64,000 nt of DNA from an uncultured Bacteroidota bacterium (GCA_937950125.1 CALFEP010000082.1:39446-103445), one strand, 5' to 3'. Positions 26,101 to 54,688 are shown, numbered from the stretch's first letter. The notes: a model not told the origin generated them from the letters alone. Translations and numbers: made by a program.

Positions 26101-26922
26101 TTTCACATCTGCATAAGTACTCAGATAATAAAAGGTCTCGAACAAAGGCCCTGGATTCCTGCGTTCCTTCCAGCCAAAATGATAAAAATGAAATTCCGGC
26201 GCAATGCCGCTCGCTTTCACATCGGCATTCACGCGTAAATAATAATCTGCATCAAAGTACCCGCTTTTTTTAATCATCTGAATTTCGGCGTCAACCAAAC
26301 TACCGCTGGATACATTCTCGCCGTAAGGCCAAAACTGCGGGTTATCCAGCCTTGAAAGGTACCCTTCAGAGAATTTTTTGTAATCGATTTCACCCGTCTC
26401 GTTTTTCCCGTTTCCGTGCAAAAGAAAGTGAACCAGGGGATTCACTCCTGATTGCGCAACACCGGGATTGTAAATAAGGTAAGAAGAACTGTCGAATAGA
26501 TCAGACGGATTGCGGCCTTCCAGGCCACCATAAAGCAAATAATGCCGAATGGGATTCAGGCCTGAATTTATGACGTCAGGATAAGACCGGACGTAAAAAT
26601 CTTTGTCAAAGTAGCCACTTTTTTTCAGCAAACGGGCATGTTTACAATATGTGATTTCTGACCTGAACTTATTGATGCTCAGGATTGCAAGCAACCATCT
26701 TTTTACCCACCTTAACAGCCTCTGAACCCTGAAAGCAATGTTCCTGCGACAAAACATCAGTTTTCCTCCCCGGCTATCCGGTGCAGTAGGGCTTGGGGCA
26801 GATGAAAATTCATTTTCTACCGGGGAATTTTCTTTTCTGTCAGCACCATCCAATTGTTCCCTCAAAAAGTCTTCCCTTCCGGACGTCATCAGATCTTTTA
26901 AAGCATTTTGATTTTCATGCAT
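23125..26922 (-). CDS. 1265-aa multi-domain glycosyltransferase: 4x 'NPDV/NPL.HY' repeats + RgpF domain + GT4 (GT-B) + GT2 (GT-A)
   Basis: Repeats at aa 100-297. RgpF blocks 'IAVVCHLFHKELADEF', 'GRDVAPFLSMF' and 'VCKVHSKKS'. GT4 block 'REDPYPLVCLEAAECELPVICFADAGGMPAFV'. GT2 block 'VSVIVPVFNQAPFLRNRLDSILKQQFRDVEIIILDDASTDNS'. Confidence 0.9.
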   Translation of the reverse strand: MHENQNALKDLMTSGREDFLREQLDGADRKENSPVENEFSSAPSPTAPDSRGGKLMFCRRNIAFRVQRLLRWVKRWLLAILSINKFRSEITYCKHARLLKKSGYFDKDFYVRSYPDVINSGLNPIRHYLLYGGLEGRNPSDLFDSSSYLIYNPGVAQSGVNPLVHFLLHGNGKNETGEIDYKKFSEGYLSRLDNPQFWPYGENVSSGSLVDAEIQMIKKSGYFDADYYLRVNADVKASGIAPEFHFYHFGWKERRNPGPLFETFYYLSTYADVKDMGVNPLIHYIKFGEAEGRLPKPFEYDESQCIAEADITDADMIEPIEKPIKIAVVCHLFHKELADEFMMYFRRIPYPCDFYITTSEQSLSYLEEYFGQKMKDVNINIRAVPNLGRDVAPFLSMFSDCLRNYDLVCKVHSKKSSHNKELEGWRTYLLENLLGSRKIIKRIITAFEADERLGIVWPLPFPYLKYLGIHLGWGPALSREKNRQNAMLYFSDLQPPALDEPFHFPVGNMFWFRPLALSYFNTLKFSQKDFEVESGDIDGALSHTIERMMGKMAEMAGYKHKTVFFPREVVHSERESGIDFRAGSRKILFIAHDLFRAGAEMILLHILNWLKRHTAYELTVVAIKKGNDGGKMLTEYRRAAKVILLDEMLAHHREQEAFDMIKGLTGNVDLIYGNTILSATVYRWLVGFGAPVITHIHELEESIKIYATPEIRNQMKKTTATYIACSLPVYNNLMVNHGLEPAILHQVDEFIRPGFFEPADKIHHRQMYGLPTDKAIIWGCGTIYWRKGTDLFIETAGILKNMGIVDFVFCWIGSNHWNNEMADWGEWQMQEKRISELQLEDIVLFTGEKENPKEYFKAGDMFYLPSREDPYPLVCLEAAECELPVICFADAGGMPAFVEEDAGYIVPYLDIMKAAEAIGQLISDKETRIKKGKAARNKMLARHTDDIAVPQILKICHAAMKTAPAVSVIVPVFNQAPFLRNRLDSILKQQFRDVEIIILDDASTDNSLEVASEYLSHPALRIIGNETNSGSPLRQWQKGIEMARGALVWIAEGDDYASHDFLSSLIPAFNNLAVMMAYCASHCVDENDVVSNEHYLRSGHYDGLGFPRERWQNDYITDGRQEIENALAVRNIIPNVSAVLFRRSVFDHLDFSGISGLKTTGDWKLYLSVLKQGSLAYFHQHLNFHRIHAKSVIGATKNEAALTVPEYYHMHRFIHDEFEIPKNIRKLMVESVELNLRNLWPEMTDDKFEQYYDVRTFDLPEKALS
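26032..26625 (-). repeat. Four tandem protein-level repeats of about 40 aa, 'FD..(F/Y)Y...(N/Y)PDV..(S/A)G.NPL.HY...G..EGR.P'
   Basis: YFDKDFYVRSYPDVINSGLNPIRHYLLYGGLEGRNP / FDSSSYLIYNPGVAQSGVNPLVHFLLHG / YFDADYYLRVNADVKASGIAPEFHFYHFGWKERRNP / FETFYYLSTYADVKDMGVNPLIHYIKFGEAEGRLP. Confidence 0.8.
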
Positions 26923-27217: not shown

Positions 27218-28507
27218 TTATGGTTCGTTGAGGCGGTAAATATTATTTGCTACCGATTCATCAAGTATCCAAGTCCCTCTCGACTCATCAGGAAAGAGTG
27301 TTTTCGGGCATGTTTTGGTTTCGTAATACGTTTTCATTCCTTCGGTTAACAAGGTTTTATGTTTTTCAAGTTTGTGAAAACCATACATTGTGCGACCAGC
27401 GTAAAACAGCAAACTACCGAGCATAATAGCCACCATGACCCATTTGTTGATTTCAGGAAAACACTGAAGTACCAGGATGTACATCAAGGCCAAAAATAAG
27501 GCAGTTATCAACCGGTAACGGTCAGCGGTAGCCACTTCTATCCCTATTCCTATTCGCGAAAAACTAATAACTGCTGCCACTGACACGATAAAAAACATTA
27601 AACCCAGGGTTACAGGATGCATTTTAATACATTTCCACCGGGATATGACCAGCCAAAGGCAAAACAGCAGGATGAAACACCCCAACAAGATAACCGGCAG
27701 GAGTTGTTTCCCAAAAAAAGGAAAGAAGTTATTGGCAAAGAAAGCAGCAAAAAACATCAGACTTCCGATGGAGCGATCGACATCATAAAAACCCGGTTTT
27801 CCCTGAGTAATTAACACATAATTACTGAAGTAACTGAGTACTGAAATTACGGCAAACAACGACCAGACAGCAATCTTATTGCGGCGCATTGGCTTCTCCA
27901 AAAACAAAATGATGTATCCCGCGATAAATACAAAAAGCCCGCTACCAAACGAAAATGTTGCTGCAATGGCAAGTATGACAGCCAGGATAAAAAACCTATG
28001 CTGACTTTTGTTTAAAAACCAAAGTGAAGCCATGATTAAAACGTATTGTACTACGCCGTTCATGGTCATTAAACTCATGTCGGTAATATGGCCCATAGGA
28101 GGAGTGAGCAACAGAACTACCGGAATAAAAAACAACATGTTTCTCTTTTCTGCCGGTAAAAAGTAGTATAAAAGTATGATTAAGATAATGATAGCCAAAT
28201 TGCCTGCAATGGTCATGAACCGGAAATTGATTTCACCCATCATCAGGTAGTTGATTAAAACCATGGCATAATAGGAAAAAATACGGTGTTCGCCATGTTG
28301 CCGGATCAATAGTCTGGCTTTATCACCAATACCAGCCTCATTAAATTTTAACAACCAATCAAGCGCTGCATCAAACTCATCCCAAAAGGGAATATTGACC
28401 GCATAGTGAAATACAGCGATAAAATAAATCGCCAGTGGCAATACAATAGCCAGATAGCCTAAAATGCTTACCCCGGAATTTTTCGATAAGGGCAAACTAA
28501 GTTTCAT
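27218..28507 (-). CDS. Polytopic membrane protein, divergent paralog B of the 16587/42718 family
   Basis: 'HYAVNIPFWDEFDA', 'RQHGEHR' and 'ATADRYRL' align with the motifs of paralogs A and C. Start taken at the ATG at 28507 (MKLSLPLSK), which overlaps the upstream stop by 11 nt. Confidence 0.75.
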   Translation of the reverse strand: MKLSLPLSKNSGVSILGYLAIVLPLAIYFIAVFHYAVNIPFWDEFDAALDWLLKFNEAGIGDKARLLIRQHGEHRIFSYYAMVLINYLMMGEINFRFMTIAGNLAIIILIILLYYFLPAEKRNMLFFIPVVLLLTPPMGHITDMSLMTMNGVVQYVLIMASLWFLNKSQHRFFILAVILAIAATFSFGSGLFVFIAGYIILFLEKPMRRNKIAVWSLFAVISVLSYFSNYVLITQGKPGFYDVDRSIGSLMFFAAFFANNFFPFFGKQLLPVILLGCFILLFCLWLVISRWKCIKMHPVTLGLMFFIVSVAAVISFSRIGIGIEVATADRYRLITALFLALMYILVLQCFPEINKWVMVAIMLGSLLFYAGRTMYGFHKLEKHKTLLTEGMKTYYETKTCPKTLFPDESRGTWILDESVANNIYRLNEP

Positions 28508-29474
28508 TCCACCCAAATCCTGTTTTTTTTGATAAAAATATCCTGATACTATAAAGAAAAATTCCCATTGACAGCAAAGCTTCAAACATTTCGCCAGGGC
28601 CATAAAAACCTGCACAGGCCAAAAAGAAAAACAAAAGTAAAAAGGAGGGTGGAGGAATGAAAAGCTTTTGCAAAACGCCCTTGTTACCAGCCGGAAAAAA
28701 CCAGGCGAGCATCAGTGCAAGGAAGGCGGTAATTCCGACAAATGGATAGAAAAGCGGCAAAACCGGGTTGATAAAATTATGCAAATTTGTTTCCTGCTGG
28801 TAATTGTAGTCTTTGAAAATCCCCTCTGCCTTCCATTTAAAAAAGTGTTGACCCCAGCTTAATTCTTCGCCAACCATCACAAGTATTACGAAAGCAAAAA
28901 TCAACGAAACTGTTTTTATTAACCTGCGGTTGGCTTTCGATTTCATATTTTGATCGTTGTGTAGTGCTGAAATGAAGAAAAGTACCGACGACAGAAACAA
29001 AACTGACGTACTTACATCCTCATAAACTCCCTCGTAGGTTGGCAATCCATTGAACAGGAAAGTCAAATGCAAGGTAAAACCAACAATGGCGCTGGCCAAC
29101 AGTGTAACTACATTAAAATTTACTAACGCCTTGTTATCATCATAAATAAAAAACCTTTTAACCCGGGCGGGATCAATAAATGAGGCAATACATCCATAGG
29201 TTTTTTCCTGAAGCAGAACAACAAAGGATTTGAGCCGGTTGGTTAAAAAAAGAATTCCAAAAAAAATGCAAAGCAACCCAAAAATAAAAACCGAACCTTG
29301 CAGGATGATTTTTGTAATGGCATTTATTTGGCCATCGGGGCTTGCATTGGTTTCCAAAAACTGAACGGCTCCTTCAAAATACAAAACACTGAAAACCAAT
29401 ATCACTGACCCAATAAATAAGCAACTTACACCTGTAACCTTCAAAAAAATTCCCATATCCCGGTACTTTTTCAT
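28497..29474 (-). CDS. Hypothetical polytopic membrane protein (325 aa) with 'GEELSWGQ' motif
   Basis: About 8 hydrophobic helices. No family recognised. ATG start; tightly coupled to both neighbours. Confidence 0.7.
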   Translation of the reverse strand: MKKYRDMGIFLKVTGVSCLFIGSVILVFSVLYFEGAVQFLETNASPDGQINAITKIILQGSVFIFGLLCIFFGILFLTNRLKSFVVLLQEKTYGCIASFIDPARVKRFFIYDDNKALVNFNVVTLLASAIVGFTLHLTFLFNGLPTYEGVYEDVSTSVLFLSSVLFFISALHNDQNMKSKANRRLIKTVSLIFAFVILVMVGEELSWGQHFFKWKAEGIFKDYNYQQETNLHNFINPVLPLFYPFVGITAFLALMLAWFFPAGNKGVLQKLFIPPPSFLLLFFFLACAGFYGPGEMFEALLSMGIFLYSIRIFLSKKTGFGWNET

Positions 29475-29477
29475 CCT

Positions 29478-30578
29478 TTAAAAATTTGTGATCATTATAT
29501 CAGGGATTCCAGTTCTTTTCGATAATTCCTTTACCGCAGGGTTACTTTTCATCCTGAATAAAACAGCCTTTTCAATCCCGAGCTTTTCAGCAAAAGCAAT
29601 CTGGTTTTTAGTGTCGTCGAAACTGATGGTTCTGCCAGGTGGAAGCCAAATTGCTGCCGTTAGTTTTCCATTGTCCCCGACAAAAGCAAAAGGATTGGCA
29701 GCCAGGTAATTTAACAAGGCATCTGATTTTTTCAAAATGGTCATTTTTACCATTCCCGAATCCTGCCAGGGTATTCCAGCATCTATTTTCGCTCCAAGCC
29801 TTGCCTTTTGAGCATTTATCCCATTAAGCATAAACGCAGGAGAGCCACCAAGATGCAGCATATTAATGTCCTTCTTTTTGGCTTCAATCACAGCAAAATA
29901 GTACATTGCAGAGGTGTTCCATTTCAGTATTTCATTCATCACACCTTCTTTCACACCAAAAAAGCCAAGGGTTGGCCGGTTTTGCCAATAGTGCATGACC
30001 AATCCAGCTATCCGCTCACCATTTTTTTTCACCATGATGATTTCAGATTTTATTGTAGGGGAAAATATATTTTCAAAAGTCACAATCAGCGATTTGTCTT
30101 GATGACGTTTGGCAACAAAAGGCAGGTACATCCGATCATAAAACACGTGCTGAGCTTCCTCAGAAGTCTCAATTTCGTAATCAAGTTTTTGCGATTTCAC
30201 CCAGCGGGCTATTCTTCCAAAACCAGACCGGCTGTTTTTCAGCATCTCATCGAGCGGTGCGGAAACATCCATCTGGGTGTTGATGAACCGGGGAATAATA
30301 AAGGTTTCACCACTGTTTGCGATTATCTTTTCTGGCAGGGAGTTTTCGGACAATAAAAGAGAACATTGCGGATGATAATTATTCAATTTCCTTATCAGGT
30401 TTTTTTCGGGAACATATTCGGGCGCACCATACAGTGGGTTTTCAAAAAACAAGGAGACCCAAAAACGTGCATTTACATAATCATAACCTAAGTAGGCAAT
30501 TTCAATTTTTTCACCAGTGGTTTTTGCTTTGCCCCGGATTACAGTTACACTATTTTTGACCTTATTTTCTGTTGGCAT
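29478..30578 (-). CDS. FemAB-like / GNAT (Acetyltransf_6-like) acyl- or aminoacyl-transferase
   Basis: The layout 'LKNSRSGFGRIARWVKSQKLDYEI...' followed by 'IIMVKKNGERIAGLVMHYW...LHLGGSPAFMLNGINAQKARLGA' resembles the FemAB-like GNAT fold. It is paralogous to the N-terminal domain of the adjacent 1177-aa protein. Confidence 0.55.
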   Translation of the reverse strand: MPTENKVKNSVTVIRGKAKTTGEKIEIAYLGYDYVNARFWVSLFFENPLYGAPEYVPEKNLIRKLNNYHPQCSLLLSENSLPEKIIANSGETFIIPRFINTQMDVSAPLDEMLKNSRSGFGRIARWVKSQKLDYEIETSEEAQHVFYDRMYLPFVAKRHQDKSLIVTFENIFSPTIKSEIIMVKKNGERIAGLVMHYWQNRPTLGFFGVKEGVMNEILKWNTSAMYYFAVIEAKKKDINMLHLGGSPAFMLNGINAQKARLGAKIDAGIPWQDSGMVKMTILKKSDALLNYLAANPFAFVGDNGKLTAAIWLPPGRTISFDDTKNQIAFAEKLGIEKAVLFRMKSNPAVKELSKRTGIPDIMITNF

Positions 30579-30664
30579 TAATTAACGTTTTGACCATTTT
30601 TGTAATGGAAGGTTTTCGCGGGTTTTGAACTTAAGATTCCTTCATGATCAACTATCTACGGTCG

Positions 30665-33600
30665 TTAATCATTTCGCGTCAGTTGATTATCAATTTTCCT
30701 TTTGAAAATTACGGTGTCCTTTTCAGCAAAAATTTTCACAAACCCGTTTTTATCCATTTCTTCAACAATTTGCTTCCATCCTTTTTCCAGTATATGCGTT
30801 GAATGATTACCAGTCCAGTCGAAATTATCAGCCGATTGAACTACCGGTGCTTCAAATAAGACTGTTTGGATTTTTGCAGGAATCCATCGCATTAACAGCA
30901 GAAGTTCCCGCCATTTCAGATGCTCTATCATGTGTGTGGCAATCAGCGCATTATATTTTTCCGAAAGATCTAGGTTCCAAATGTAATCGCTCAGTGGAAT
31001 CTGACGATAGCGGTTATCCTTGCATTTTTGGGTAGATTGATCGGAGATTACATCAAAATTATCCCACTCTTCAACAAACCCGTATCGTGATAAAATATCC
31101 CGTGCAAGATCGCCCCGCCATCCACCAATTTCGAGAACACGGGCAGGTCTCGGAACGTGGTTTTCGATCCATTGAAATACAAAAGGCAGTGTGTAGTGAG
31201 CCTGTTCAGGATATTTGTGTAATGAATCATTTGCAATATCTACAAGTTGACCGAAGGTCATAAGGTCATAGTTTTCTCTGAAAAGGTCCATTTCCCTGAT
31301 GGATTTGGCCAAAGGGCTTTCCTCGTCAGTCTTCGGTAGTTCTTTGATGCTTTCTGCGGGTTGTCCGGTTTTGTCCGGAACTGGCAGCAACGCTTGTTTG
31401 GCAGCCTTAACCCAGGTTTTCAGCTTAACTGAGTTATAATCCTTACCAGCAATTATATAGCTAAACAGATCGAGCCATGCAATACGGCGGTTTGGAAATG
31501 TCTTTACCAGTTTCCAAAGAGCAATCATTCCTGCCTTTTTGTCTTTAAGCTGGTAACAGAGATTAACGTACACTTTGTGGTGCATGTAATAAGCATCCCA
31601 GTGATTTTTGAGAAAACCCCGGTTTCGGTCGATTATTTTTCCATAATTGACCATCTTCAACCTGCTGAATTTTTCATGCGTAAGCTGCCCATCACCGTGG
31701 TGATGAATTTTGACCAAAACCTCAGGGACCGTCCTGAAATTGTAATACTTCGATAGCCGCAACATAAAATCGGTGTCCTCGCCCACCCTGAGCGTTTCAT
31801 CGTAAAATCCGGTTTTTTTCAAACATTCCCGCTTCACGCTCAGCCCAAAGCCATTGCCGATGGCCGTCGAAACCATCAACCCCTGTTCAAGGGTTTCAAA
31901 ATCGGCCGGCCACAGCTGCGTTCTGATAATTTCCTCACCAGTGGCAGTATCTTTTACACGGGTAATGCCTGTCCACACAAAGCCGGGATTGTTGTTGGCC
32001 TCATCAAATGTTTGCCTGATTTTCATCAAAATATCCGGGAGGTACTCATCGTCATCATCCAGAAAGTTGAGGTATTTGCCGGAGGCGTTTTTCATTCCGG
32101 TGTTGTAAGCCCCAGCCGCGCCTTTTGAATTTTCGTGCACCAGGTATTTAATTCTCGGATCGTTGAACGATTCAACCATAGTTCGGGTTTCAAGGCTGTT
32201 TGCATCGTCCACAATAATTTGCTCCCAATTGGTAAACGACTGCTTTTGAACGCTTTCTATGTTTCTTCTAAGAAAGCCGGGGCGATTGTTGGTTGGTGTG
32301 ATGATGCTGAAAACCGGATTGGGATTGAAACCGGGAGGTTCGTTTAATATGGAGGCCATTCTCGTCTCCATTTCCAGAAATCCGGCGTACACAGCATGCG
32401 ACTTTTGATAAAGCTGCCGATGCCTTCGGAATGCCTGCAAGGAAGCCAAATCATGCAATTGTATGTTCATTAAGCGTCGTCCCGACCGACTGTCAACAGG
32501 ATGCTGATAGGTCCTGATAAAAACAAGTGTTTCTTCAATTTTCCTTACCTCTCTTCCCAACTCAAGAATTGAGAGCCAGAAATCAAAATCTTCGTATCCG
32601 TGTTGCAGGAAACTGGAATATCCTTCGGTTTTCTCCCAGTCACACCTTCTGTAACAGGCATTTGCTATGATGCAATTTGCCCTCAACATACCTTCAAAAG
32701 TGTAGTCATGGATACGAAACGGTTCGTATTTATGGCCAAACAGAAATGCGTTTGAGTAAACTATGCCAACATTTGGATTTGTATCCATCACTTCAACACA
32801 TTTGTGTAAAAACTCAGGCGCAATCCTGTCATCGGCATCCAGGTTAACAATCAGGTCGCCTTTGGCGTGGGTTATAGCCAGGTTTCGGGCATTGGCCGGA
32901 CCATGATTTGCTGTATAAAAAATCCTGACTTTTTTGTGTCTGATTTTTTTCAGAACCGTTGCCGTTTCGTCGGTTGAGCCATCATCAACAATAATTATTT
33001 CATAGAATTGAAAGGTTTGATTAAAAATGGATTGTAGATTTTCGAGAATGTATTTACCATGATTAAAACACGGAACAACCACCGTTACCCGAACGGGCAA
33101 GCTGAACCGGATGTGAACTTTGTAAAGGGCTTTTTTAATCAGAAGCCAACTGTGGCGCATGATAAGGCCAACATGATACCTCCAGTCGTCGGGTGGTGGC
33201 GGCGGTGAATGAACAATTTCGCGTATCACCTCCTTTTCAACCACCTTTTCAACCTCGGTCACAACCGACCTATCAGCAAAAATATGGAAGTACTGTGCCA
33301 TGGTGCCTCCATAGCTTCTCAAATGGGTTTCGATGCGCTGGATATCCGAACCTCCAAAATTGTAGTAACGAACCCTGCTGCTAAAATACCTGATGGCTTC
33401 CCAATTGGCCAGCGAATGCCCCCCGAGATGTCCGTACGTTGGATCGCTTGCACTGAGCAGAGCATATGCTGATTTTGGATTGAAAACCAAATAAATGGCA
33501 GCGTGAGGTGTTCCAACATTATCGAAAACAGTAATGATGCGCCTTTGATCTCGTTTTACAATTTCATCATCCAACAACTTAAAATCGTCGTAAGAAAACC

Positions 33601-34198
33601 GGAAGGTAAGGCCTTGCCGCTTATAGGTTAGCTCAACAAGTGAGTAAAATGCGCGAAGATCGTCCGTAACCAGTGAAATTAGATTGTGTGAAAGGGCTTT
33701 TCTAATGTTCCTTTTCCTGTTGGAATTTAACTGATTCCAAAGTTCCTTTTCCGTCTTTCCTTCAAAATCAATTAAATATGTGTAGCGCGTCATCTGCTTG
33801 TAGCCCCTCCACCTGAAAGGCAGCCAATCGATGAAGTTGTGAGAAGTACAAAACTGCTCAAAATCATCATAAGGGATCTCATCAAGCAGCAATTCAAGCC
33901 ATTGCCGTTCAAGGGTTGACCTGTCGTGTTCGGATAAACGGCTCAGGTCTTTGAAAAGCGGACCCAGCGTTCGGGTAATTGGAGGCTCATTAATTTTCCC
34001 AAGATAATAAGCCAGCGGGATTCCGGCAACAATTTCATCGTTTTCAAATACAGCCAGGATTTTAAAATTCCCTTTGGTGATGGCGTCGAGCCACCACGAA
34101 TAACAAAAGACATCGCCCTGTGGGGAATCATCCACAAAGCGGTTCCATAGGTCGAATTGAGCTGGCAGTAATTCAATTGCAAAACTTTTCATTTTCAT
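30665..34198 (-). CDS. 1177-aa four-domain protein: FemAB-like GNAT + GT2 + GT2 + class I methyltransferase-like domain
   Basis: aa 1-310: 'LNSNRKRNIRKALSHNL...AAIYLVFNPKSAYALLSASDP...YNFGGS'. GT2-A: 'VTVVVPCFNHGKYILENLQSIFNQTFQFYEIIIVDDGSTDET...NLDADD'. GT2-B: 'FSIITPTNNRPGFLRRNIESVQKQSFTNWEQIIVDDANS...FLDDDDE'. C-terminus: 'VLEIGGWRGDLARDIL...ALIATHMIEHL'. Confidence 0.85.
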   Translation of the reverse strand: MKMKSFAIELLPAQFDLWNRFVDDSPQGDVFCYSWWLDAITKGNFKILAVFENDEIVAGIPLAYYLGKINEPPITRTLGPLFKDLSRLSEHDRSTLERQWLELLLDEIPYDDFEQFCTSHNFIDWLPFRWRGYKQMTRYTYLIDFEGKTEKELWNQLNSNRKRNIRKALSHNLISLVTDDLRAFYSLVELTYKRQGLTFRFSYDDFKLLDDEIVKRDQRRIITVFDNVGTPHAAIYLVFNPKSAYALLSASDPTYGHLGGHSLANWEAIRYFSSRVRYYNFGGSDIQRIETHLRSYGGTMAQYFHIFADRSVVTEVEKVVEKEVIREIVHSPPPPPDDWRYHVGLIMRHSWLLIKKALYKVHIRFSLPVRVTVVVPCFNHGKYILENLQSIFNQTFQFYEIIIVDDGSTDETATVLKKIRHKKVRIFYTANHGPANARNLAITHAKGDLIVNLDADDRIAPEFLHKCVEVMDTNPNVGIVYSNAFLFGHKYEPFRIHDYTFEGMLRANCIIANACYRRCDWEKTEGYSSFLQHGYEDFDFWLSILELGREVRKIEETLVFIRTYQHPVDSRSGRRLMNIQLHDLASLQAFRRHRQLYQKSHAVYAGFLEMETRMASILNEPPGFNPNPVFSIITPTNNRPGFLRRNIESVQKQSFTNWEQIIVDDANSLETRTMVESFNDPRIKYLVHENSKGAAGAYNTGMKNASGKYLNFLDDDDEYLPDILMKIRQTFDEANNNPGFVWTGITRVKDTATGEEIIRTQLWPADFETLEQGLMVSTAIGNGFGLSVKRECLKKTGFYDETLRVGEDTDFMLRLSKYYNFRTVPEVLVKIHHHGDGQLTHEKFSRLKMVNYGKIIDRNRGFLKNHWDAYYMHHKVYVNLCYQLKDKKAGMIALWKLVKTFPNRRIAWLDLFSYIIAGKDYNSVKLKTWVKAAKQALLPVPDKTGQPAESIKELPKTDEESPLAKSIREMDLFRENYDLMTFGQLVDIANDSLHKYPEQAHYTLPFVFQWIENHVPRPARVLEIGGWRGDLARDILSRYGFVEEWDNFDVISDQSTQKCKDNRYRQIPLSDYIWNLDLSEKYNALIATHMIEHLKWRELLLLMRWIPAKIQTVLFEAPVVQSADNFDWTGNHSTHILEKGWKQIVEEMDKNGFVKIFAEKDTVIFKRKIDNQLTRND

Positions 34199-34249: not shown

Positions 34250-37243
34250 TCAGATCATTTCTTCAACCATCTTTTCCCATTTCTGGTGCATGTATTTTTG
34301 ATCGAGTACTTCATGGGCATATTTTTTGGCAGATGCCGAAATGCGTGACCGCATTTCATCATCATTTTTCAGTTCGACTATACTTTTAGCAAATGCTTCA
34401 TAATCACCAGGTTCGATTAAATATCCGTTGTCGCCATCATTAATCAAAGTAGGCAGCCCACCAACCCTGGAGGCAACTACCGGAACTCCGGCAGCAAGTG
34501 CCTCGAGTACTGCATTTGGACGGCCATCCATACGCGAAGGGAGTATGAGTACATCAGCCACCGATAACAAATCAACCGATTCGACAAAACCCGGGGTAAA
34601 TATTACATCCTGCAACTCGCTGAGTGCGATAAGATTCTTAATGTCCTCGAAAAGTGGCCCATATCCACACATCACAAATATTATTTCTTTGCTCCTTGTC
34701 TTTTTGGCAATTTCAACAACCGCTTCCGGGCCTTTCTCTTCCGAAAATCTACCTAAAAAACCTACCACAAATTTGTTTTGGCATATTCCAAGTTGTGACT
34801 TTATCGTGTCCTTATCTCTTTTAAGCGAGAACTTTATGAGGTCAACACCATTGTGAATCAGCTTGATTTTATCCGGTTTTTCAGCATAATGGTTCAGTAA
34901 TAAATCCCTGATCTTTTCATTTTCAACGACGTTCAGATCAATATACCGGGCATATTTCCGGTTGTTTTTCATGTGACCTTCTTCATTAAATATGAAATCA
35001 ATTATTTTCAGGCAGGGATTTTCGGATTTGATGCGGGGAAGCAAAGGGTAAGTAACCACACTGCCAGCCTGAATCAAAACATCGGCTTTCTTTGCTAAGA
35101 TCAGCTGGAGGATGAATTGCTGCATTTGTTGCTGCGTGGACAAAAATTTTGGCAGGTGATAAATTTCTTTTGTAAACTTTTCGTAAAAGGGAGTATTGTC
35201 GCCGTATTCTTTAGTCACCGGAACGGTAGTAAAAAATGCAATGTCGTATTTTTTGGAAAGATACCCGAAGATGTTGATAAAAATGGAGTCAACACCGCCA
35301 ATAATCATGAAAGGCAGCGCCACCAGTATTCGTTTTCTGGTTTTAGTGTGACCCATATTAATAAACGGATGTTTGATTTTGAAGTTGGCTTCGACCGATT
35401 TTTGCCGGATACGCCGATAGGCTGGAGCATCCAGATAAACATTTTCCTGTCTGATAATTTCCTTTTGCTCATTAACAGAGGTTTCGCAAAGCTGCGAAAG
35501 GCTTTTATGGTGCACCCTGTAAAGCATGAGTGGTTCGGGAATTGCCTTAAACCGGAACCCTGATCCGGCTAATCGTACCCAAAATTCCCAATCCTCACTC
35601 ACATGTCCTTTGCCAATAGGGTAATCCTTGTACCCACCAGCTTTTTCCCAGGCAGACTTCCTGAAAACTGCATTTGTCGCTACCAAATTCCCTTCAATGG
35701 TAAGGGTTTCGTAGGTCGCATCGGCTGTCTTCCAAAGCGTCTCCGACTCGCCAAAACTTTGCACCCAGGGATAAACCACATCATAATTCAGGGCTTCGAG
35801 ATAGAACACTGCCTTTTCGAGGTAAGTTGGCAGGATGGCGTCGTCGGAGTCGAGGCAACAAATGTATTTTCCTTTTGCCAGTTTGATTCCAAAATTCCGG
35901 TTATCTCCTACAAGATGCCTCCCTCCTCTGAAATGCACCTGAATTTTGGGATGAATGATCTGCTTCAGAACCTCAACCGTTTTAGTATCATCCGAACCGC
36001 CGTCAACAACAATGATTTCATAATTAATGAAAGTTTGATTTAGCACCGATTCAATGGTTTCGTGGATGTATTTCCCATAATTATAATTTGGAATCACCAC
36101 ACTTACCAGCGGATCGCCTGCAGGCCATTTTTGGTTGACAATTGTTGTCCTGCGAAGTAATCGGATAGTATTGCTCACCTTCTTTCGAAGTTTCTCAGGC
36201 AGCAGACCCGTCCAAACCAAAGTTGATACGATCCCTTTCAAAATCAGATTGGTAATTTTACCCAGCATCGAATTTTTTGGAAAAACACTATGGTAGCTAT
36301 TACGCAGGCTGTCAGCAATTTTCCATGATTTTGAGCTGAAAATCAAGTCGAGTGTTGACTGTAATTCAGCATTTTTCTGCTGGTTTTTTTGCAGCCCCAT
36401 TGCCAGACCCAGTTTAAAAAAATCGTAATACTTCAGGCCGGGATTGTAGCTTTTCTGGCTTTCGATGGCTTCAAAAATATCGGTGTAATGTTTTTCATCG
36501 GCCAATCTGATCAGATCGTGATAAAAGAATGCAACCATCCGGTGACGTTCTTCAATGGTTTTGCCCTCCCATGTCCCCTGGGCTGTTACTGCATGATGCG
36601 CCATGATTTCATCCAGAAAATGAATCTTCCCTTTTTGTGCAAAAACGAGATGAATTGGCCAATCGGGAAAGGCTAAGGTCTTAAACAAATCGGGGAAATC
36701 GCTGTTGCAATTTCTGTAAACCACCGAACAGTTTGCGATAAAGTTTTCTTTGATCAAATCTTGAAACGTAAACCCGTTTTTTTGTCCAAATAGGTGGCTG
36801 TAAAACTTATTATGCTCCTCAAAATCCACCTCAGCGCCACCGACAAAACCCACGCGGTGAAAGCTAATGCTGTAATCCGGATGGTTCTGCATAAAATCAA
36901 TCTGCTTCTGCAACTTCAGCGGGTCAGTCCAATAGTCGTCGCCTTCGCAAATGGCTAAATATTTACCTTTTGCCTGCGGAAAAACGATCTGCGTGTAAAT
37001 TTCATACAGGCTTTTTCCTTTGCTAAACAAGTTTTCAGGTTGGATTAACAATCGAACAATCTCCGGATTTTCCTGCTGAAATTTTCGGATAATCAGTGTG
37101 GTTCCATCATCGGAGGCATCATCATGGATTAAAATCTCAACAGGAAAATCAGTTTTTTGCATCAGGAAGGATTCAATTGCTTTTCCGATGCAGTTTTTGT
37201 GATTGTATGTCAGGCAGCAGATGCTAACGAGAGGTTGTGTCAT
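34250..37243 (-). CDS. GT2 + GT2 + GT4 triple-domain glycosyltransferase
   Basis: 'VSICCLTYNHKNCIGKAIESFLMQKTDFPVEILIHDDASDDGT', 'VSVVIPNYNYGKYIHETIESVLNQTFINYEIIVVDGGSDD...CLDSDD', and a C-terminal GT-B block 'SRMDGRPNAVLEALAAGVPVVASRVGGLPTLI'. The track start at 37285 is a TTG, so the ATG at 37243 (MTQPLVSICC) is preferred. Confidence 0.88.
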   Translation of the reverse strand: MTQPLVSICCLTYNHKNCIGKAIESFLMQKTDFPVEILIHDDASDDGTTLIIRKFQQENPEIVRLLIQPENLFSKGKSLYEIYTQIVFPQAKGKYLAICEGDDYWTDPLKLQKQIDFMQNHPDYSISFHRVGFVGGAEVDFEEHNKFYSHLFGQKNGFTFQDLIKENFIANCSVVYRNCNSDFPDLFKTLAFPDWPIHLVFAQKGKIHFLDEIMAHHAVTAQGTWEGKTIEERHRMVAFFYHDLIRLADEKHYTDIFEAIESQKSYNPGLKYYDFFKLGLAMGLQKNQQKNAELQSTLDLIFSSKSWKIADSLRNSYHSVFPKNSMLGKITNLILKGIVSTLVWTGLLPEKLRKKVSNTIRLLRRTTIVNQKWPAGDPLVSVVIPNYNYGKYIHETIESVLNQTFINYEIIVVDGGSDDTKTVEVLKQIIHPKIQVHFRGGRHLVGDNRNFGIKLAKGKYICCLDSDDAILPTYLEKAVFYLEALNYDVVYPWVQSFGESETLWKTADATYETLTIEGNLVATNAVFRKSAWEKAGGYKDYPIGKGHVSEDWEFWVRLAGSGFRFKAIPEPLMLYRVHHKSLSQLCETSVNEQKEIIRQENVYLDAPAYRRIRQKSVEANFKIKHPFINMGHTKTRKRILVALPFMIIGGVDSIFINIFGYLSKKYDIAFFTTVPVTKEYGDNTPFYEKFTKEIYHLPKFLSTQQQMQQFILQLILAKKADVLIQAGSVVTYPLLPRIKSENPCLKIIDFIFNEEGHMKNNRKYARYIDLNVVENEKIRDLLLNHYAEKPDKIKLIHNGVDLIKFSLKRDKDTIKSQLGICQNKFVVGFLGRFSEEKGPEAVVEIAKKTRSKEIIFVMCGYGPLFEDIKNLIALSELQDVIFTPGFVESVDLLSVADVLILPSRMDGRPNAVLEALAAGVPVVASRVGGLPTLINDGDNGYLIEPGDYEAFAKSIVELKNDDEMRSRISASAKKYAHEVLDQKYMHQKWEKMVEEMI

Positions 37244-37292
37244 TTTTTTGTTAGTGATGGGAGTCGTGGGAAACGGGCAATTCAATTACACT

Positions 37293-40200
37293 TCAGGCAC
37301 TTTCAACAATTTCAATTTCCTCCTCCGTCAATCCGTAAAGCTCATACACCAGTTGATTGATCCGGTTTTCGCAGAAATCAATTTTGCCTTTCAACAATTG
37401 TCGGTCGCTTTCGAGGGTGAGGGTGGGGAGTTGGTGATTACAATTTTCCAGTTGAGATACAAGATTGATAAGCTCTATCTGAATTCCAATCTCCTTATTA
37501 TTTTTGCTATCAATATTTTTTACAGGAAAGGGCTTTATGTATTCAGGTGTAAGTCTGTAGGCATTTCCACGAAGAGCAGTGCCTGTGTTGGAAAGAAAAA
37601 ACCAAAACAACCTCGAACCCAGCAATGCAGCGATGTATTTCATACCCAAACAGGAATACTCGTCTTTAAGAATTACACTATGAATGGCGGGCCCATGAAA
37701 AAATTCACCTTTTTCATCAACGGCAATTCTGCTTTCTACCAACAAATCGGGAATCAGAATTTTTGGTTTATTGTACCATCCAAGGCTTCTGGCAGCTGAA
37801 TATTTGTAAAAATCTTCAGTCGTAAAACTCAACTTTCGCTTTTGTAAAATTGTCCTTACTTTTTTAAAATATTCAGAAGCCAATGGAAATTCCTTTTTCA
37901 TTTTTTTGAACTCTGTTAAACAAACAGGTTCATGGGAAGAATAAGGAAAAATCAAATGCTTGTGATATTTCCCGATAGTGTATCTTCTTACATCAGAACC
38001 ATAAAGAAAAGGCCTCAGCAAAGCGGTTTCTATCTGCACCCTTTCATGGAGAATTTCTGAGTAGAAAGTCGATATCTCATTATTGCTTTCCACAACATCA
38101 ACAAGATAAACACTGTCGTTGCCGGTTGATGAACCCTTGAAGATTTTTAAACAGATGTCGTTCAGCAATAATTTGTTATGATTGATTTTCTCAAAAATCT
38201 CACTTTTTGATGAATCAACAAAATTCCATTTCCCGATAAGGCATTCAGAGTCCAGATTTTTCTTTTTTTCCGAATAAAGAAAATCAACCATATTGTTGAC
38301 TAACTCAATCTTTTGATATGAAAAAGTTTCCACTGGAATATTTGATAAAAACAACAGACAGGTGTAGGTTGTTGCATTAGTAAATACTTGGTTTGTTGTG
38401 AAATTATTGATTTGACTTACTGCCTTTTTACCTGCTAACAAGAGTCTGATAGAATTTCCATATTCAGCAGTAAAAAACTTATTTGGAAGAATCATCCCGG
38501 ACCGACCAGTACTATTGAGAATTTTTAGGGTTTTCTCAATAAATAATACATACAAATCATAATTTCCATAATTTGCACTGTGATAATACTTCTTAAAATA
38601 ATTTGTTTGGGTAGTGTTGATTGTCTGAATTCTGACGTAAGGCGGATTTCCAATCACTACATCGAAGCCGCTTTTGAATTTGGCAACCATTTCGGGTTCG
38701 CTCGCCTGGCTAACCTCTTCTTCCAATTGCGAAACATACTCCAGTGTTTTTTGGGCATGATGCTTTGCTTTTTTGGCAAGCGTCAGCAAGTTTTCTTCCT
38801 TTCCTGGCTCAACGCCATATACAGCTTTACGCCGAAACACTTCGGGAAATGCACTTACCCAATTAAATGGCTTTATCTTTTTCTCGTCGCCAAAATCGAG
38901 TTGTGTCGAATAAAAATCGGTATCGATCAGGCTGTTTCCGCTCTGGATGTTGTGATCAAGCGAAGGCAATACCCTTTCGTTGAATAATTTGAATTGCGAG
39001 TTGATGCTTGCTTCGGTTTCGCCCTCGAGGCATTTGAGCAGCAGACTGAGTTTGGTTACTTCCACGGCATTTACGTCAATATCAACGCCATAAATGTTAT
39101 TCAGAAGAATCCGTTTCTTTTCGGCAGTTGTGAGTGAACCTGTGGGAGTGAGCGGGTTGCTTTTGCTACCTTTCGATGGTTTACCGTGATTGCTGTAATA
39201 ATCTTTGTGCCAGTCTAACAGAAACTGGTAAGCGCCTAACAGAAAACTTCCGCTGCCACAGGCCGGGTCAACAATTTTTAATTCGCTTACCTCTTTGGGT
39301 GTTTTGCCTTCGACCAGCGTGCCAACGGTGTTTTTTACAATATAATCGACAATGTATTGTGGTGTGTAGTAAACTCCGCCAGCCTTACGCACTTCGGGCT
39401 TTTCTTCAATTTTGGCATGGTGTGCCGGAGTAATCCTGATAATTTTTCCAAGAAACTGTTCATAAGCTGTACCCAGAATTTCGACCGGCATAACGCCAAA
39501 TTCGTATTCGCTTTTGGGGTAGTAAAGTTCCTCAACAAGGTTTTTAATTACCTTGTTATCAATAATTAAACTGTGGCTAATCTTATCCTTGCTGAAATCG
39601 AAGAGGCCAGAGTTGTATTTTTCGTCAGCAATTTTGAATACCTGAAACAGATTTTGGTAAAAATCGCCCGACTGAATGCAGTGCTTGAGATTGTTTTCCG
39701 GTTCAATGCCCCTGTCTTCGGCAATTCTGAGAAAAATGACACGGTCGATGGTTTGCTGCACCACATAGTTAATTTCTTCTTCGGTAAGGGTTTTATTGTT
39801 CCAGCTCACTGATGTGGCCAGATAAGTGCGCCAGTTGTCCAACGATTGCAGGAATTCTTTATCAACAGTTGCCGTTCCTTTTTTGTGTGTATCGCTTTGG
39901 ACAAACCTATCGAAACTCCCTTTCAAAACCTGCTCTTTGGCAAAGGTTTCCCAAAGAAAATCGAATTTTTCGTTGTATTCGCGGAAAGTGAAATAGGCAA
40001 TCCGGCCAACGTGTGGTTTGTCGGCATTATTTGGCTTTTGGGTGCAGTCGTACACAGCAAACTCCTCAAAATCGGTAAGAATACATACCGGAAGTTTTGC
40101 ATTCCAGCCATATCGCCTGACCTGGTAAGCTGGCTGAATTTCATCTTTTATGTAAACGGCTGGTTTTTTGGCTTCCACAAAAAACAGCCGCTTTCCTCCC

Positions 40201-40457: not shown

Positions 40458-40487
40458 ATAATTTGTTTTGCATAAATAGGCACTTAT

Positions 40488-40506
40488 CCGATGCTTTAAA
40501 CATCGG
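40488..40506 (-). promoter_or_regulatory. Small stem-loop between the wzm stop and the RM gene start
   Basis: CCGATG-ctttaaa-CATCGG (6 bp stem, 7 nt loop) within the 56-nt spacer. No U-tract follows, so it is unlikely to be a strong terminator. Confidence 0.2.
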
Positions 40507-40513
40507 GCAGATG

Positions 40514-41335: not shown

Positions 41336-41350
41336 TTACTGAATAGCGAA

Positions 41351-49251: not shown

Positions 49252-49289
49252 GCACAAGATTTTATGCTTGACATTAAAATATTATAGAT

Positions 49290-53025: not shown

Positions 53026-53030
53026 AACTG

Positions 53031-53783: not shown

Positions 53784-53850
53784 CTTTTCATCTTTTCAAT
53801 TTCTTATTTTTTAAAGGCTATGATGAAGAACTACCTTTTTACTCATAGCA

Positions 53851-54630: not shown

Positions 54631-54688
54631 CAATTAAGTTACTGCGAGCTAAATTTGGAGGAAGGTTGCCGATGGAATATTTTGTCCG

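What the first reader, a model, noticed from the sequence alone, without database searches (positions are those of the whole stretch)
30665..34198. FemAB-like domain fused to two GT2 domains and a methyltransferase-like domain, next to a free-standing FemAB-like paralog
The N-terminal 310 aa of the 1177-aa protein and the adjacent 366-aa protein (29478..30578) both show the two-lobed FemAB/GNAT (Acetyltransf_6-like) pattern. Some members of that family use aminoacyl-tRNA or acyl donors.

Fusion to two GT-A polymerising domains and a C-terminal 'LEIGGWRG...IEHL' Rossmann domain suggests an enzyme that builds a repeat unit and also acylates or aminoacylates and methylates it. A 'PPPPPDDW' linker separates the first two domains.
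Basis: partly seen in the sequence, partly recalled or inferred. Interest (0 to 1): 0.65.

Follow-up and report, generated by a model that had tools for sequence, protein, structure and literature searches.

The report
Fused Fem-like glycan-building and decorating enzyme
One very large gene in a sludge bacterium's surface-sugar gene cluster joins four enzymes that are separate neighbouring genes in relatives: a FemX-like transferase, two sugar-adding enzymes and a methyltransferase. This suggests the sugar chain is built and then decorated, possibly with amino acids, but the chemistry is untested.

Summary
The ORF at 30665..34198 (-) encodes 1177 aa in five parts:
- a FemAB/Acetyltransf_6 tandem-GNAT domain (aa 1-310; both Pfam models pass their cut-offs)
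- a conserved basic tail (aa 311-366)
- two GT2 domains with intact DXD motifs
- a C-terminal domain (aa 960-1177) that folds as a class I SAM methyltransferase (pLDDT 91)

The neighbouring 366-aa protein has no Pfam, NCBIfam or PDB sequence hit. Its family profile and predicted fold still place it with FemX, MprF and other aminoacyl-tRNA-dependent tandem GNATs. It is a very distant relative, not a recent paralog.

The fusion is real. Independent assemblies reproduce it without indels.

The main new result is that the four parts form a conserved gene module in Bacteroidota. In relatives they occur as separate adjacent genes or in other fusions:
- Fem-GT2-GT2
- Fem-GT2-MT
- Fem-GT2-GT2-GT4
- Fem-GT2-GT2-MT-p366, as a single 1529-aa ORF

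'PPPPPDDW' lies inside the ancestral Fem-like protein's own C-terminal extension. The true fusion joint comes after 'HIRFS' (aa 366).

The most likely function is a soluble, probably cytoplasmic, enzyme of a Wzm/Wzt-exported glycan that adds two sugars, acylates or aminoacylates a sugar, and methylates. The donor (aminoacyl-tRNA or acyl-CoA) is unresolved.

I rate it a new variant of a known kind, of moderate interest.

The parts
30665..34198 (-). Whole 1177-aa ORF: Fem-like, tail, GT2, GT2, methyltransferase-like
   Evidence: Intact in independent assemblies. No predicted TM segment (maximum KD19 1.27).
33269..34198 (-). aa 1-310: tandem-GNAT FemAB/Acetyltransf_6 domain. Motifs 'NFGGSD' (aa 280-285) and 'HLRSYGG' (aa 292-298).
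   Evidence: Pfam PF02388 at 43 bits and PF13480 at 34.5 bits. Family profile against FemX 6snr E 8e-6 over both lobes. 147 homologs, and the 120 listed are all 300-390 aa free-standing proteins.
33101..33268 (-). aa 311-366: 'VEKVVEKEV' repeat spacer, PPPPPDDW, and the basic-hydrophobic tail ending in HIRFS. This is the C-terminal extension of the ancestral free-standing Fem-like protein. The fusion joint lies at its end.
   Evidence: Alignment A2. In L001 the homolog ends '...HIRFSNKNPR**', followed by ~140 nt and then the GT2 start. Hydrophobic moment is only moderate (0.37, ~83rd percentile).
32339..33100 (-). aa 367-620: first GT2 (GT-A) domain. 'IVDDGSTD' at aa 403-410 and 'NLDADD' at aa 452-457.
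   Evidence: PF00535 stretch 372-497. PDB hits include chondroitin synthase 2z87, E 1e-24. Motif positions.
31379..32338 (-). aa 621-940: second GT2 domain plus its helical C-terminal extension. 'IVDDANS' at aa 662-668 and 'LDDDDE' at aa 713-718.
   Evidence: PF00535 second stretch. NCBIfam partial matches TuaG, PglI and WcaA, all below cut-off. PglI structure 9jma E 7e-16.
30668..31321 (-). aa 960-1177: class I SAM-methyltransferase-fold domain. 'LEIGGWRG' at aa 1022-1029, 'WDNFD' at aa 1045-1049, 'ATHMIEH' at aa 1087-1093.
   Evidence: AF2 pLDDT 91.4. Foldseek top 50 hits are nearly all SAM methyltransferases, with two spermidine synthases of the same fold. 34 homologs, nearly all free-standing proteins of ~221 aa without Pfam hits, on the same contigs as Fem-like homologs.
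29478..30578 (-). 366-aa free-standing second Fem/MprF-like tandem-GNAT protein plus a C-terminal alpha/beta extension. K258 is invariant across the family.
   Evidence: Fused to the C-terminus of the Fem-GT2-GT2-MT protein in L010, giving a 1529-aa ORF.
28497..29474 (-). 325-aa polytopic membrane protein, no family hit. Same operon.
   Evidence: Also present next to the p366 homolog on ENA contig L086.
27218..28615 (-). Polytopic membrane protein of up to 465 aa (true start uncertain), no family hit.
   Evidence: A 34%-identical relative is in L008.
34250..37285 (-). Upstream 1011-aa multi-domain glycosyltransferase (GT2, GT2, GT4).
   Evidence: It directly precedes the Fem-like gene in L006 and L020 too.
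23125..26922 (-). 1265-aa RgpF, GT4, GT2 protein. Relatives of its C-terminal GT2 domain follow the Fem/MT genes in most type B/C loci.
40514..42667 (-). Wzm (ABC-2 permease, 40514..41335) and Wzt (ATPase with Wzt_C carbohydrate-binding domain, 41351..42667). This is the export system of the cluster.

Best explanation
SHOWN:
- The ORF is a genuine multi-domain protein with no predicted membrane span. It lies in a large gene cluster (~12-64 kb of the window) for a heavily decorated surface polysaccharide exported by a Wzm/Wzt ABC transporter. The organism is a Lentimicrobiaceae-like Bacteroidota from sludge.
- The protein is a fusion of four proteins that are separate, adjacent genes in relatives: a FemX-like tandem-GNAT transferase with its own basic tail, two GT-A (GT2) glycosyltransferases, and an unannotated ~221-aa class I methyltransferase-fold protein.
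- The adjacent 366-aa protein is a second, very divergent Fem/MprF-like tandem GNAT. In one relative it is fused to the same polypeptide.

INFERRED MECHANISM:
- The protein works at the cytoplasmic face on the undecaprenyl-linked glycan or on a nucleotide sugar.
- The two GT2 domains add two sugars.
- The Fem-like domain transfers an acyl group onto one of them, most plausibly onto a sugar amine. I favour an aminoacyl group from aminoacyl-tRNA, but only slightly over an acyl-CoA donor.
- The 366-aa enzyme adds a second residue or acts on a second site.
- The methyltransferase domain methylates the sugar or the added group.
- The Wzt carries a carbohydrate-binding domain, so the product may be, or may include, the non-reducing-end cap that ends chain growth and licenses export.
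For: Domain identities.

Conserved module:
- In 25 of 26 distinct loci whose Fem-like gene is at least 41% identical, GT2 genes related to the two GT2 domains lie alongside it. The exception is L018, where the match lies at the start of the stretch fetched.
- The 221-aa methyltransferase-like gene is adjacent in 13 of those loci.
- Three gene orders occur.
- At least 15 homologs of the C-terminal domain sit on contigs of exactly the same length as Fem-like homologs.

Alternative fusions (Rosetta-stone evidence that the parts act together) come:
- L007 and L087, 941/940 aa: Fem-GT2-GT2
- L009, 957 aa: Fem-GT2-MT
- L008, 1385 aa: Fem-GT2-GT2-GT4
- L010, 1529 aa: Fem-GT2-GT2-MT-p366

Location and pathway:
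- No TM segments.
- Wzm and Wzt with Wzt_C are in the same strand-run.

Support for a sugar-amine acceptor in the wider family:
- Clostridial homologs lie in a nonulosonic-acid cluster.
- L087 has a DegT aminotransferase.
- L005 and L009 have PIG-L deacetylases.

Precedents:
- The C. difficile type B flagellin locus has GT2s, a GT2-methyltransferase fusion and a FemAB-like gene. Its glycan ends in Fuc3N capped with taurine, Ala and Gly (PMC5207246, PMC5207245).
- Orf11 aminoacylates an amino sugar from Gly-tRNA (PMC12945691).
- HfsK is proposed to acylate holdfast polysaccharide (PMC5362036).

For p366, the top 15 structural neighbours are all aminoacyl-tRNA-dependent enzymes.
Against: - No donor or acceptor is shown.
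- No deacetylase or sugar aminotransferase was found among the window ORFs scanned.
- PIG-L accompanies the module in only 2 loci.
- No tRNA gene lies in the window or in 28 module loci.
- At the position I would align (from memory of Fem sequences) with the essential Lys305 of FemX, the N-domain family has mostly Arg ('HLRGFGG'). I could not verify this mapping.
- The methyltransferase domain has 'GGWRG' instead of the usual GxGxG and misses the Pfam threshold.
- The p366 model has only moderate confidence (pLDDT 67) and low TM-scores.
- In Bacteroidales the module sits in a compact operon without a transporter. A role as an ABC-pathway terminator therefore cannot be its general function.
Confidence: 0.55

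Rival explanations
1. The architecture and pathway role are the same, but the Fem-like domains are acyl-CoA-dependent N- or O-acyltransferases adding, for example, acetyl, succinyl or hydroxyacyl groups. No aminoacyl-tRNA is involved.
For: - Pfam Acetyltransf_6 also passes its cut-off.
- HfsK, the closest polysaccharide-linked relative, is discussed simply as an acyltransferase with unknown donor (PMC5362036).
- No tRNA genes or extra aminoacyl-tRNA synthetases were seen nearby.
- A possible Arg replaces the Fem catalytic Lys in the N-domain family (mapping unverified).
Against: - The sequence profile hits FemX and FemA, not CoA-dependent GNATs.
- The nearest folds to p366 are FemX, Sba18/Sbb17 and MprF, all aminoacyl-tRNA-dependent, ahead of CoA-dependent tandem GNATs such as VipF and N-myristoyltransferase.
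- The cluster already has other acylation systems: MBOAT plus AlgX-like, and Acyl_transf_3.
Confidence: 0.3
2. The Fem-like domains have lost catalysis. They serve as binding or scaffold modules that hold the lipid-linked glycan or tether the glycosyltransferases to the membrane or to partner enzymes.
For: - A conserved basic tail resembles the HfsK tail that is needed for membrane association (PMC5362036).
- The fusions could reflect assembly of a complex.
- The catalytic residue is not verified.
Against: - The N-domain family is highly conserved: 55 invariant columns across 26 sequences at 42-65% identity, clustered in motifs typical of the Fem active-site region (NFGGS, LRGFGG).
- The p366 family keeps an invariant Lys and Gly across 52 sequences at ~20-50% identity.
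- Such conservation is more typical of enzymes.
Confidence: 0.08
3. The long ORF is an artefact, either an assembly chimera or a sequencing error that removed a stop codon between separate genes.
For: - In L001 the homologous genes are separate, with an in-frame stop between Fem and GT2.
- The window's own protein was not returned by the first protein search.
Against: - Two runs of one sample give identical contigs across the gene (one contig in X2, two overlapping in X1).
- Contigs from a different study carry 28 substitutions, no indel and no stop (26 tested).
- ENA contig L086 matches at 99.63% without gaps.
- Four other loci have independent fusions at the same joint.
Confidence: 0.02

Closest known systems
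HfsK of Caulobacter crescentus (FemX-like tandem GNAT of holdfast polysaccharide synthesis; PMC5362036)
   Same: - Tandem-GNAT, FemX-like protein genetically coupled to polysaccharide synthesis.
- Soluble, with a short basic C-terminal extension absent from FemX.
- Proposed to acylate the polysaccharide, possibly on amines.
- Donor unknown.
   Different: - HfsK is free-standing and belongs to a Wzx/Wzy-type pathway.
- It binds c-di-GMP through its tail.
- No fused GT2 or methyltransferase partners are described for it.
FemX/FemA/FemB peptidoglycan aminoacyl-transferases (PF02388; PDB 6snr, 1lrz, 1ne9/4ii9)
   Same: - Two-lobed GNAT fold.
- Pfam FemAB above cut-off for the N-domain.
- Profile match to 6snr over both lobes.
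- FemX of W. viridescens is the best structural match of the 366-aa protein.
   Different: - The genomic context is polysaccharide synthesis, not peptidoglycan precursor synthesis.
- The coiled-coil arm of the S. aureus Fem factors is missing, as it is in FemX of W. viridescens.
- Identity is very low.
- Equivalence of the essential Lys305 is not established.
Clostridioides difficile type B flagellin glycosylation locus (CDR20291_0241-0247; PMC5207246, PMC5207245)
   Same: - A glycan locus that combines GT2 enzymes, a GT2 fused to a methyltransferase domain, a FemAB-superfamily gene and an ATP-grasp gene.
- The product is a methylated rhamnose-containing glycan whose terminal amino sugar (Fuc3N) carries a peptidyl cap of Ala, Gly and taurine.
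- The window cluster likewise has RgpF domains, methyltransferases, a TupA-like ATP-grasp and sulfotransferases.
   Different: - It is a protein O-glycan of a Gram-positive flagellin, not an ABC-exported polymer.
- Its Fem-like gene is free-standing, and its role was never tested because no mutant was obtained.
- The methyltransferase there is a standard Methyltransf_11 domain.
Orf11 / Sba18 / Sbb17: aminoacyl-tRNA-dependent aminoacylation of the amino sugar streptothrisamine (PMC12945691; PDB 9wqy, 9wqw)
   Same: - Fem-like tandem GNATs that put an amino acid on a sugar amine.
- Among the best structural neighbours of the 366-aa protein (E 5e-6 to 1.6e-5).
   Different: They act in secondary-metabolite pathways of Streptomyces, are free-standing, and act on a small molecule.
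WsaE (Geobacillus stearothermophilus S-layer glycan) and WbdD/WbdA (E. coli O8/O9a): polymerase and terminator enzymes of ABC-transporter-dependent glycans. This comparison rests on my own knowledge and was not tested here.
   Same: - Multi-domain cytoplasmic enzymes that combine glycosyltransferase domains with a methyltransferase, which caps the chain.
- Export by a Wzt whose C-terminal domain reads the cap.
   Different: - None of them contains a Fem-like domain.
- No sequence relationship of the methyltransferase domain to WbdD or WsaE was shown.
- The module also occurs where no ABC transporter is nearby.

Membership tests
FemABX family (Pfam PF02388) | Match to the family HMM above the curated cut-off | tested here: met
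   N-domain: 43.0 bits against 24, though the best stretch covers only profile positions 149-215 of 406. The 366-aa protein gets no hit at E<=10, so this feature is not met for it.
FemABX family (Pfam PF02388) | Two tandem GNAT lobes | tested here: met
   N-domain family profile aligns to FemX 6snr residues 9-230 and 262-358. The 366-aa protein's AF2 model matches FemX 4ii9 over 329 columns, probability 1.0 but TM 0.35-0.38.
FemABX family (Pfam PF02388) | Essential active-site Lys (Lys305 of FemX from W. viridescens, preceded by Phe) | tested here: inconclusive
   Candidates are R294 in 'HLRSYGG' for the N-domain (Arg in most homologs, Lys in one) and invariant K258 for the p366 family. An attempt to align this region to solved Fem structures gave only spurious hits.
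FemABX family (Pfam PF02388) | Aminoacyl-tRNA as donor | not testable with these tools
   This needs biochemistry. No tRNA genes are nearby, which is neutral.
FemABX family (Pfam PF02388) | Acceptor is a peptidoglycan precursor | tested here: not met
   The gene is fused to GT2 domains. It sits in a Wzm/Wzt polysaccharide cluster with no mur or fem context.
Acetyltransf_6 / HfsK-type polysaccharide-associated tandem GNATs (PF13480) | PF13480 match above cut-off, and coupling to polysaccharide genes | tested here: met
   34.5 bits against 22. Glycosyltransferase neighbours are present in every locus with >=41% identity except L018, where the match lies at the start of the stretch fetched.
Acetyltransf_6 / HfsK-type polysaccharide-associated tandem GNATs (PF13480) | C-terminal basic tail that mediates membrane association and c-di-GMP binding | tested here: inconclusive
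   A tail is present and conserved, but its amphipathicity is only moderate. Binding cannot be tested here.
XrtA/PEP-CTERM-associated FemAB protein (TIGR03019) | Equivalog HMM score above cut-off | tested here: not met
   30.9 bits against a cut-off of 260.
GT2 (GT-A fold) glycosyltransferases | PF00535 match and acidic DXD-type motifs | tested here: met
   Two stretches, 214 bits. DDG/DAD and DDA/DDDD motifs read directly from the sequence.
Class I SAM-dependent methyltransferases | Rossmann-like seven-strand methyltransferase fold | tested here: met
   pLDDT 91.4, and the top Foldseek hits are nearly all SAM methyltransferases, TM 0.5-0.63.
Class I SAM-dependent methyltransferases | Family HMM above cut-off, and the canonical GxGxG motif I | tested here: not met
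   Methyltransf_23 scores 19.2 bits against 27. Motif I is 'EIGGWRG'. An acidic residue at the end of strand 2 (D in 'WDNFD') is invariant.
ABC-transporter-dependent glycan pathway with a capped chain | Wzm permease plus a Wzt ATPase carrying a C-terminal carbohydrate-binding domain | tested here: met
   ABC2_membrane, ABC_tran and Wzt_C at 40514..42667.
ABC-transporter-dependent glycan pathway with a capped chain | This protein makes the terminal cap | not testable with these tools
   This is inference only. The cluster contains several other methyltransferases that could do it.

The most novel reading that the evidence does not exclude
The two Fem-like enzymes use aminoacyl-tRNA to build an aminoacyl or short peptidyl substituent on a sugar of a lipid-linked surface glycan, and the fused methyltransferase then methylates it. 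The two enzymes are the N-domain and the 366-aa protein, which form one polypeptide in L010. If so, this conserved Bacteroidota module would be a tRNA-dependent 'peptidyl-glycan' synthase. It would link translation substrates to surface polysaccharide or LOS decoration in diderm (Gram-negative-type) bacteria. It would also assign a function to two unannotated protein families: the ~221-aa methyltransferase-like family and the ~1070-cluster p366 family.
Probability: 0.3. Interest if true: 0.75.

Novelty: new variant of a known kind. Interest (0 to 1): 0.5.

Why it matters
Amino-acid and peptidyl substituents occur on bacterial glycans. One example is the Ala, Gly and taurine cap on C. difficile flagellin glycans (PMC5207245). 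From my own knowledge, N-aminoacyl amino sugars in O-antigens and glycine in LPS cores are further examples. The enzymes that attach them are mostly unknown.

Fem-like genes have been noticed in polysaccharide loci before (HfsK, the PEP-CTERM FemAB family, CDR20291_0244), but none has a defined reaction.

This module physically fuses a Fem-like domain to its glycosyltransferase and methyltransferase partners. In one relative a second Fem-like enzyme is fused as well. That gives a compact, expressible system in which donor, acceptor and order of reactions can be tested. It also flags two unannotated families as part of the same chemistry.

If the donor proves to be acyl-CoA, the finding is an ordinary, if unusually fused, decorating enzyme.

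Tried and rejected
- **Direct comparison of p366 with the N-domain.** BLASTP gave E 0.044. hhalign with only 8 close p366 homologs gave probability 8.7%. Both are too weak. The link appeared only after the exhaustive HMMER search supplied distant family members.
- **PDB sequence searches for p366.** Searches with the single sequence and with two profiles found nothing meaningful.
- **Mapping the FemX catalytic Lys.** A C-lobe sub-profile returned only spurious de novo TIM-barrel hits, so I abandoned it.
- **Testing whether deacetylation creates the acceptor amine.** PIG-L genes accompany the module in only L005 and L009, and none is in the window. This is not a general feature.
- **Looking for dedicated tRNA genes or RNA elements.** None was found in the window or in 28 module loci.
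- **Treating the tail as a strong amphipathic membrane helix.** The hydrophobic moment is only ~0.37, so I do not claim it.
- **Assembly artefact.** Rejected.
- **Membership of TIGR03019.** Rejected.
- **Literature search for 'PF13480' plus 'polysaccharide'.** It found nothing.

Full report
**What is in the sequence**

Window 30665..34198 (-) is one uninterrupted 1177-codon ORF. It lies in a long run of minus-strand genes. Pfam places these domains in it:
- FemAB (PF02388): 43 bits against a cut-off of 24.
- Acetyltransf_6 (PF13480): 34.5 bits against 22. Both of these are in the first ~300 residues.
- Two Glycos_transf_2 domains at aa ~372-560 and ~628-830.

Both GT2 domains keep their acidic DXD-type motifs: DDGSTD/DADD and DDANS/DDDDE.

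The last ~218 residues get only a sub-threshold Methyltransf_23 hit. With an alignment of 32 homologs they fold at pLDDT 91.4 into a Rossmann-type domain. Its best structural neighbours are nearly all class I SAM methyltransferases.

A profile of 26 homologs of the N-terminal domain matches S. aureus FemX (6snr, E 8e-6) across both GNAT lobes, and also FemA.

**The 366-aa neighbour**

ORF 29478..30578 (-) has no hit in Pfam, NCBIfam or the PDB by sequence. It resembles the N-domain only at BLASTP E 0.044.

The word-indexed search found just eight relatives. The exhaustive HMMER search found 1070 cluster representatives. The evidence from that wider family is:
- A 52-member alignment aligns with the N-domain family over 252 columns (hhalign 73.6%, E 2.9e-5).
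- Four members weakly hit Pfam FemAB.
- The AF2 model (pLDDT 67) is closest to W. viridescens FemX (E 2e-7), then to the aminoacyl-tRNA-dependent synthases Sba18/Sbb17 and the MprF aminoacyl-phosphatidylglycerol synthase domains.

TM-scores are low (0.33-0.42), so this shows fold-class membership and is not a precise model. I conclude that it is a second, very divergent Fem/MprF-like tandem GNAT. It is not a recent paralog of the N-domain.

**The fusion is real**

- An ENA contig (L086) matches window 28147-32739 at 99.63% without gaps.
- Logan contigs from two runs of a bioreactor-sludge sample are identical across the gene.
- Contigs from a different sludge study span the Fem/GT2 joint with 28 substitutions (about half of the 26 tested are synonymous), no indel and no new stop among those tested.

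**The parts form a conserved module**

All 120 listed homologs of the N-domain are free-standing proteins of 300-390 aa. Nearly all of the 34 homologs of the C-terminal domain are free-standing proteins of ~221 aa without any Pfam annotation. At least 15 of them sit on contigs of exactly the same length as N-domain homologs.

Fetching loci confirmed the linkage. In 25 of 26 distinct loci whose Fem-like gene is at least 41% identical, genes related to GT2a and GT2b are adjacent. The exception is L018, where the match lies at the start of the stretch fetched. The methyltransferase-like gene is adjacent in 13 of those loci. Three gene orders occur:
- Fem, GT2a, GT2b, [MT], [p366]. This is the order in the closest relatives, which are Lentimicrobiaceae and other Bacteroidia MAGs.
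- GT2a, GT2b, Fem, MT, GT2c. This is the order in Bacteroidales and Rikenellaceae. There it forms a compact operon headed by a GT25 gene, with no transporter nearby (L090, L091).
- Fem, MT, GT2c.

More distant homologs (<37% identity, for example in Clostridium) lack these partners. One of them lies in a nonulosonic-acid biosynthesis cluster.

The same parts are fused in different combinations elsewhere:

| Locus | Length | Architecture |
|---|---|---|
| L007, L087 | 941 / 940 aa | Fem-GT2-GT2 |
| L009 | 957 aa | Fem-GT2-MT |
| L008 | 1385 aa | Fem-GT2-GT2-GT4 |
| L010 | 1529 aa | Fem-GT2-GT2-MT-p366 |

In L001 and L005 all parts are separate genes. These alternative fusions are strong evidence that the Fem-like, GT2, methyltransferase-like and p366 proteins act together.

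**The linker**

'PPPPPDDW' (aa 332-339) is not the fusion joint. Free-standing homologs carry the same proline/DDW segment. They also carry the following basic-hydrophobic tail ('...LIKKALYK.HIRF') as their own C-terminus. In L001 that tail is followed by two stop codons, ~140 nt, and then the GT2 start codon. The window lost that interval, so the joint is after 'HIRFS' (aa 366).

The tail recalls the 25-aa C-terminal extension that HfsK needs for membrane association (PMC5362036). Its hydrophobic moment is only moderate, so I do not assign it that role.

**Context**

The window carries housekeeping genes at 2-10 kb: thrS, infC, ffh, folD and a TPR/PD40/OmpA protein. From ~12 kb to the end it carries a very large glycan cluster on the minus strand:
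- Multi-domain glycosyltransferases, including two with RgpF domains.
- An MBOAT plus AlgX-like pair, and an Acyl_transf_3 protein.
- Several methyltransferases and a TylF/pyruvyl-transferase fusion.
- A TupA-like ATP-grasp and three sulfotransferases.
- Wzm, and Wzt with a Wzt_C carbohydrate-binding domain.

Neither the big protein nor p366 has a predicted membrane span. That fits work at the cytoplasmic face, where NDP-sugars, SAM, acyl-CoA and aminoacyl-tRNA are all available.

**Most likely mechanism (inferred)**

The GT2 domains add two sugars to the lipid-linked chain. The Fem-like domain transfers an acyl or aminoacyl group to one of these sugars. The p366 enzyme adds a second residue or serves a second site. 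The methyltransferase domain methylates the sugar or the substituent.

A sugar-amine acceptor is suggested by three kinds of context in relatives:
- a nonulosonic-acid cluster
- a DegT aminotransferase
- PIG-L deacetylases

None of these is universal, and none was found in the window.

Three published precedents are relevant:
- The C. difficile type B flagellin locus has GT2s, a GT2-methyltransferase fusion, a FemAB-like gene and an ATP-grasp gene. Its glycan ends in Fuc3N capped with Ala, Gly and taurine (PMC5207246, PMC5207245).
- Orf11 is a Gly-tRNA-dependent Fem-like enzyme that acylates an amino sugar (PMC12945691).
- HfsK is proposed to acylate holdfast polysaccharide (PMC5362036).

Because Wzt carries a carbohydrate-binding domain, the decorated unit could be the chain-terminating cap, as with WbdD or WsaE (my own knowledge). 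The module also occurs without a transporter, so this cannot be its general role.

**What remains open**

The donor is unresolved. Points favouring aminoacyl-tRNA:
- The N-domain profile matches Fem proteins rather than CoA-dependent GNATs.
- The nearest structural neighbours of p366 are all aminoacyl-tRNA-dependent.
- Both Fem-like families are basic (median pI 9.2 and 9.5).

Points against, or neutral:
- No nearby tRNA genes.
- A probable Arg, rather than Lys, at the position I would align with FemX Lys305 in the N-domain family. I could not verify that alignment.

I put aminoacyl-tRNA at ~0.35-0.4, acyl-CoA at ~0.3, and a non-catalytic role at <0.1.

**Verdict**

This is a new variant of a known kind, namely Fem-like GNATs in polysaccharide loci. 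What is new:
- the conserved Fem + GT2 + methyltransferase (+ second Fem-like) module
- its repeated fusion into single polypeptides
- two unannotated partner families

Interest is moderate (0.5). It would be high if tRNA-dependent aminoacylation of the glycan were shown.

Noticed in passing
window 37293..40457 (-): A 1054-aa Type IIG restriction-modification enzyme (HSDR_N, Eco57I/MmeI-type N6-methylase and TaqI_C specificity domain) sits between wzm and the first glycosyltransferase gene. In the related Lentimicrobiaceae contig L020, wzm and the p1011 homolog are only ~50 nt apart. Window ~37223-40514 is therefore an insertion into the glycan operon.
   Followed up: partly
window 52357..54633 (-): Three consecutive sulfotransferase genes (two Sulfotransfer_2, one Sulfotransfer_1/3) lie inside the glycan cluster. 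Next to them are a TylF-methyltransferase/pyruvyl-transferase fusion (55010..57805) and a TupA-like ATP-grasp (57811..58710). Together they point to a sulfated, pyruvylated and methylated polymer.
   Followed up: no
window 18013..20642 (-): An MBOAT (480 aa) is immediately followed by an AlgX-like SGNH protein (395 aa). This is an alginate/Dlt-style pair for acylation of an extracytoplasmic polymer. An MBOAT is also present near the module in L005 and L008.
   Followed up: no
window 33227..33253 (aa 316-324), and homologs in alignment A2: Only the closest Fem-like homologs (>54% identity) carry a short repeated spacer such as 'VEKVVEKEVIREI' or 'VIKEIQVVKEIQVIKEI' between the GNAT core and the proline/DDW tail. 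More distant family members have a gap there.
   Followed up: no
L090 8231..12593 and L091 7306..12654: In Bacteroidales and Rikenellaceae MAGs the module is a compact GT25-GT2-GT2-Fem-MT-GT2 operon. Its chromosomal neighbourhood is conserved (sulfatases, arginine decarboxylase, G6PD) and has no transporter. The GT25 family is typical of LOS/LPS core glycosyltransferases (my own knowledge), which hints at a lipooligosaccharide target there.
   Followed up: partly
window 50667..52376 (-): A 569-aa GT2 protein has a long non-catalytic C-terminal half that includes a heptad-like stretch ('QIEISQLNSKIEALKNEIVSIKRS'). This may be a coiled-coil spacer of the kind used for chain-length control in ABC-dependent pathways.
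   Followed up: no
window 49260..50660: About 1.4 kb inside the cluster has no ORF longer than 120 aa, no Rfam match and no tRNA. It may be a promoter region or a decayed gene.
   Followed up: partly
L001 1994..2712: In ENA contig L001 the GT2a homolog is split by a frameshift near position 2240 into 86-aa and 159-aa gene calls. This is either a pseudogene or a sequencing error.
   Followed up: no
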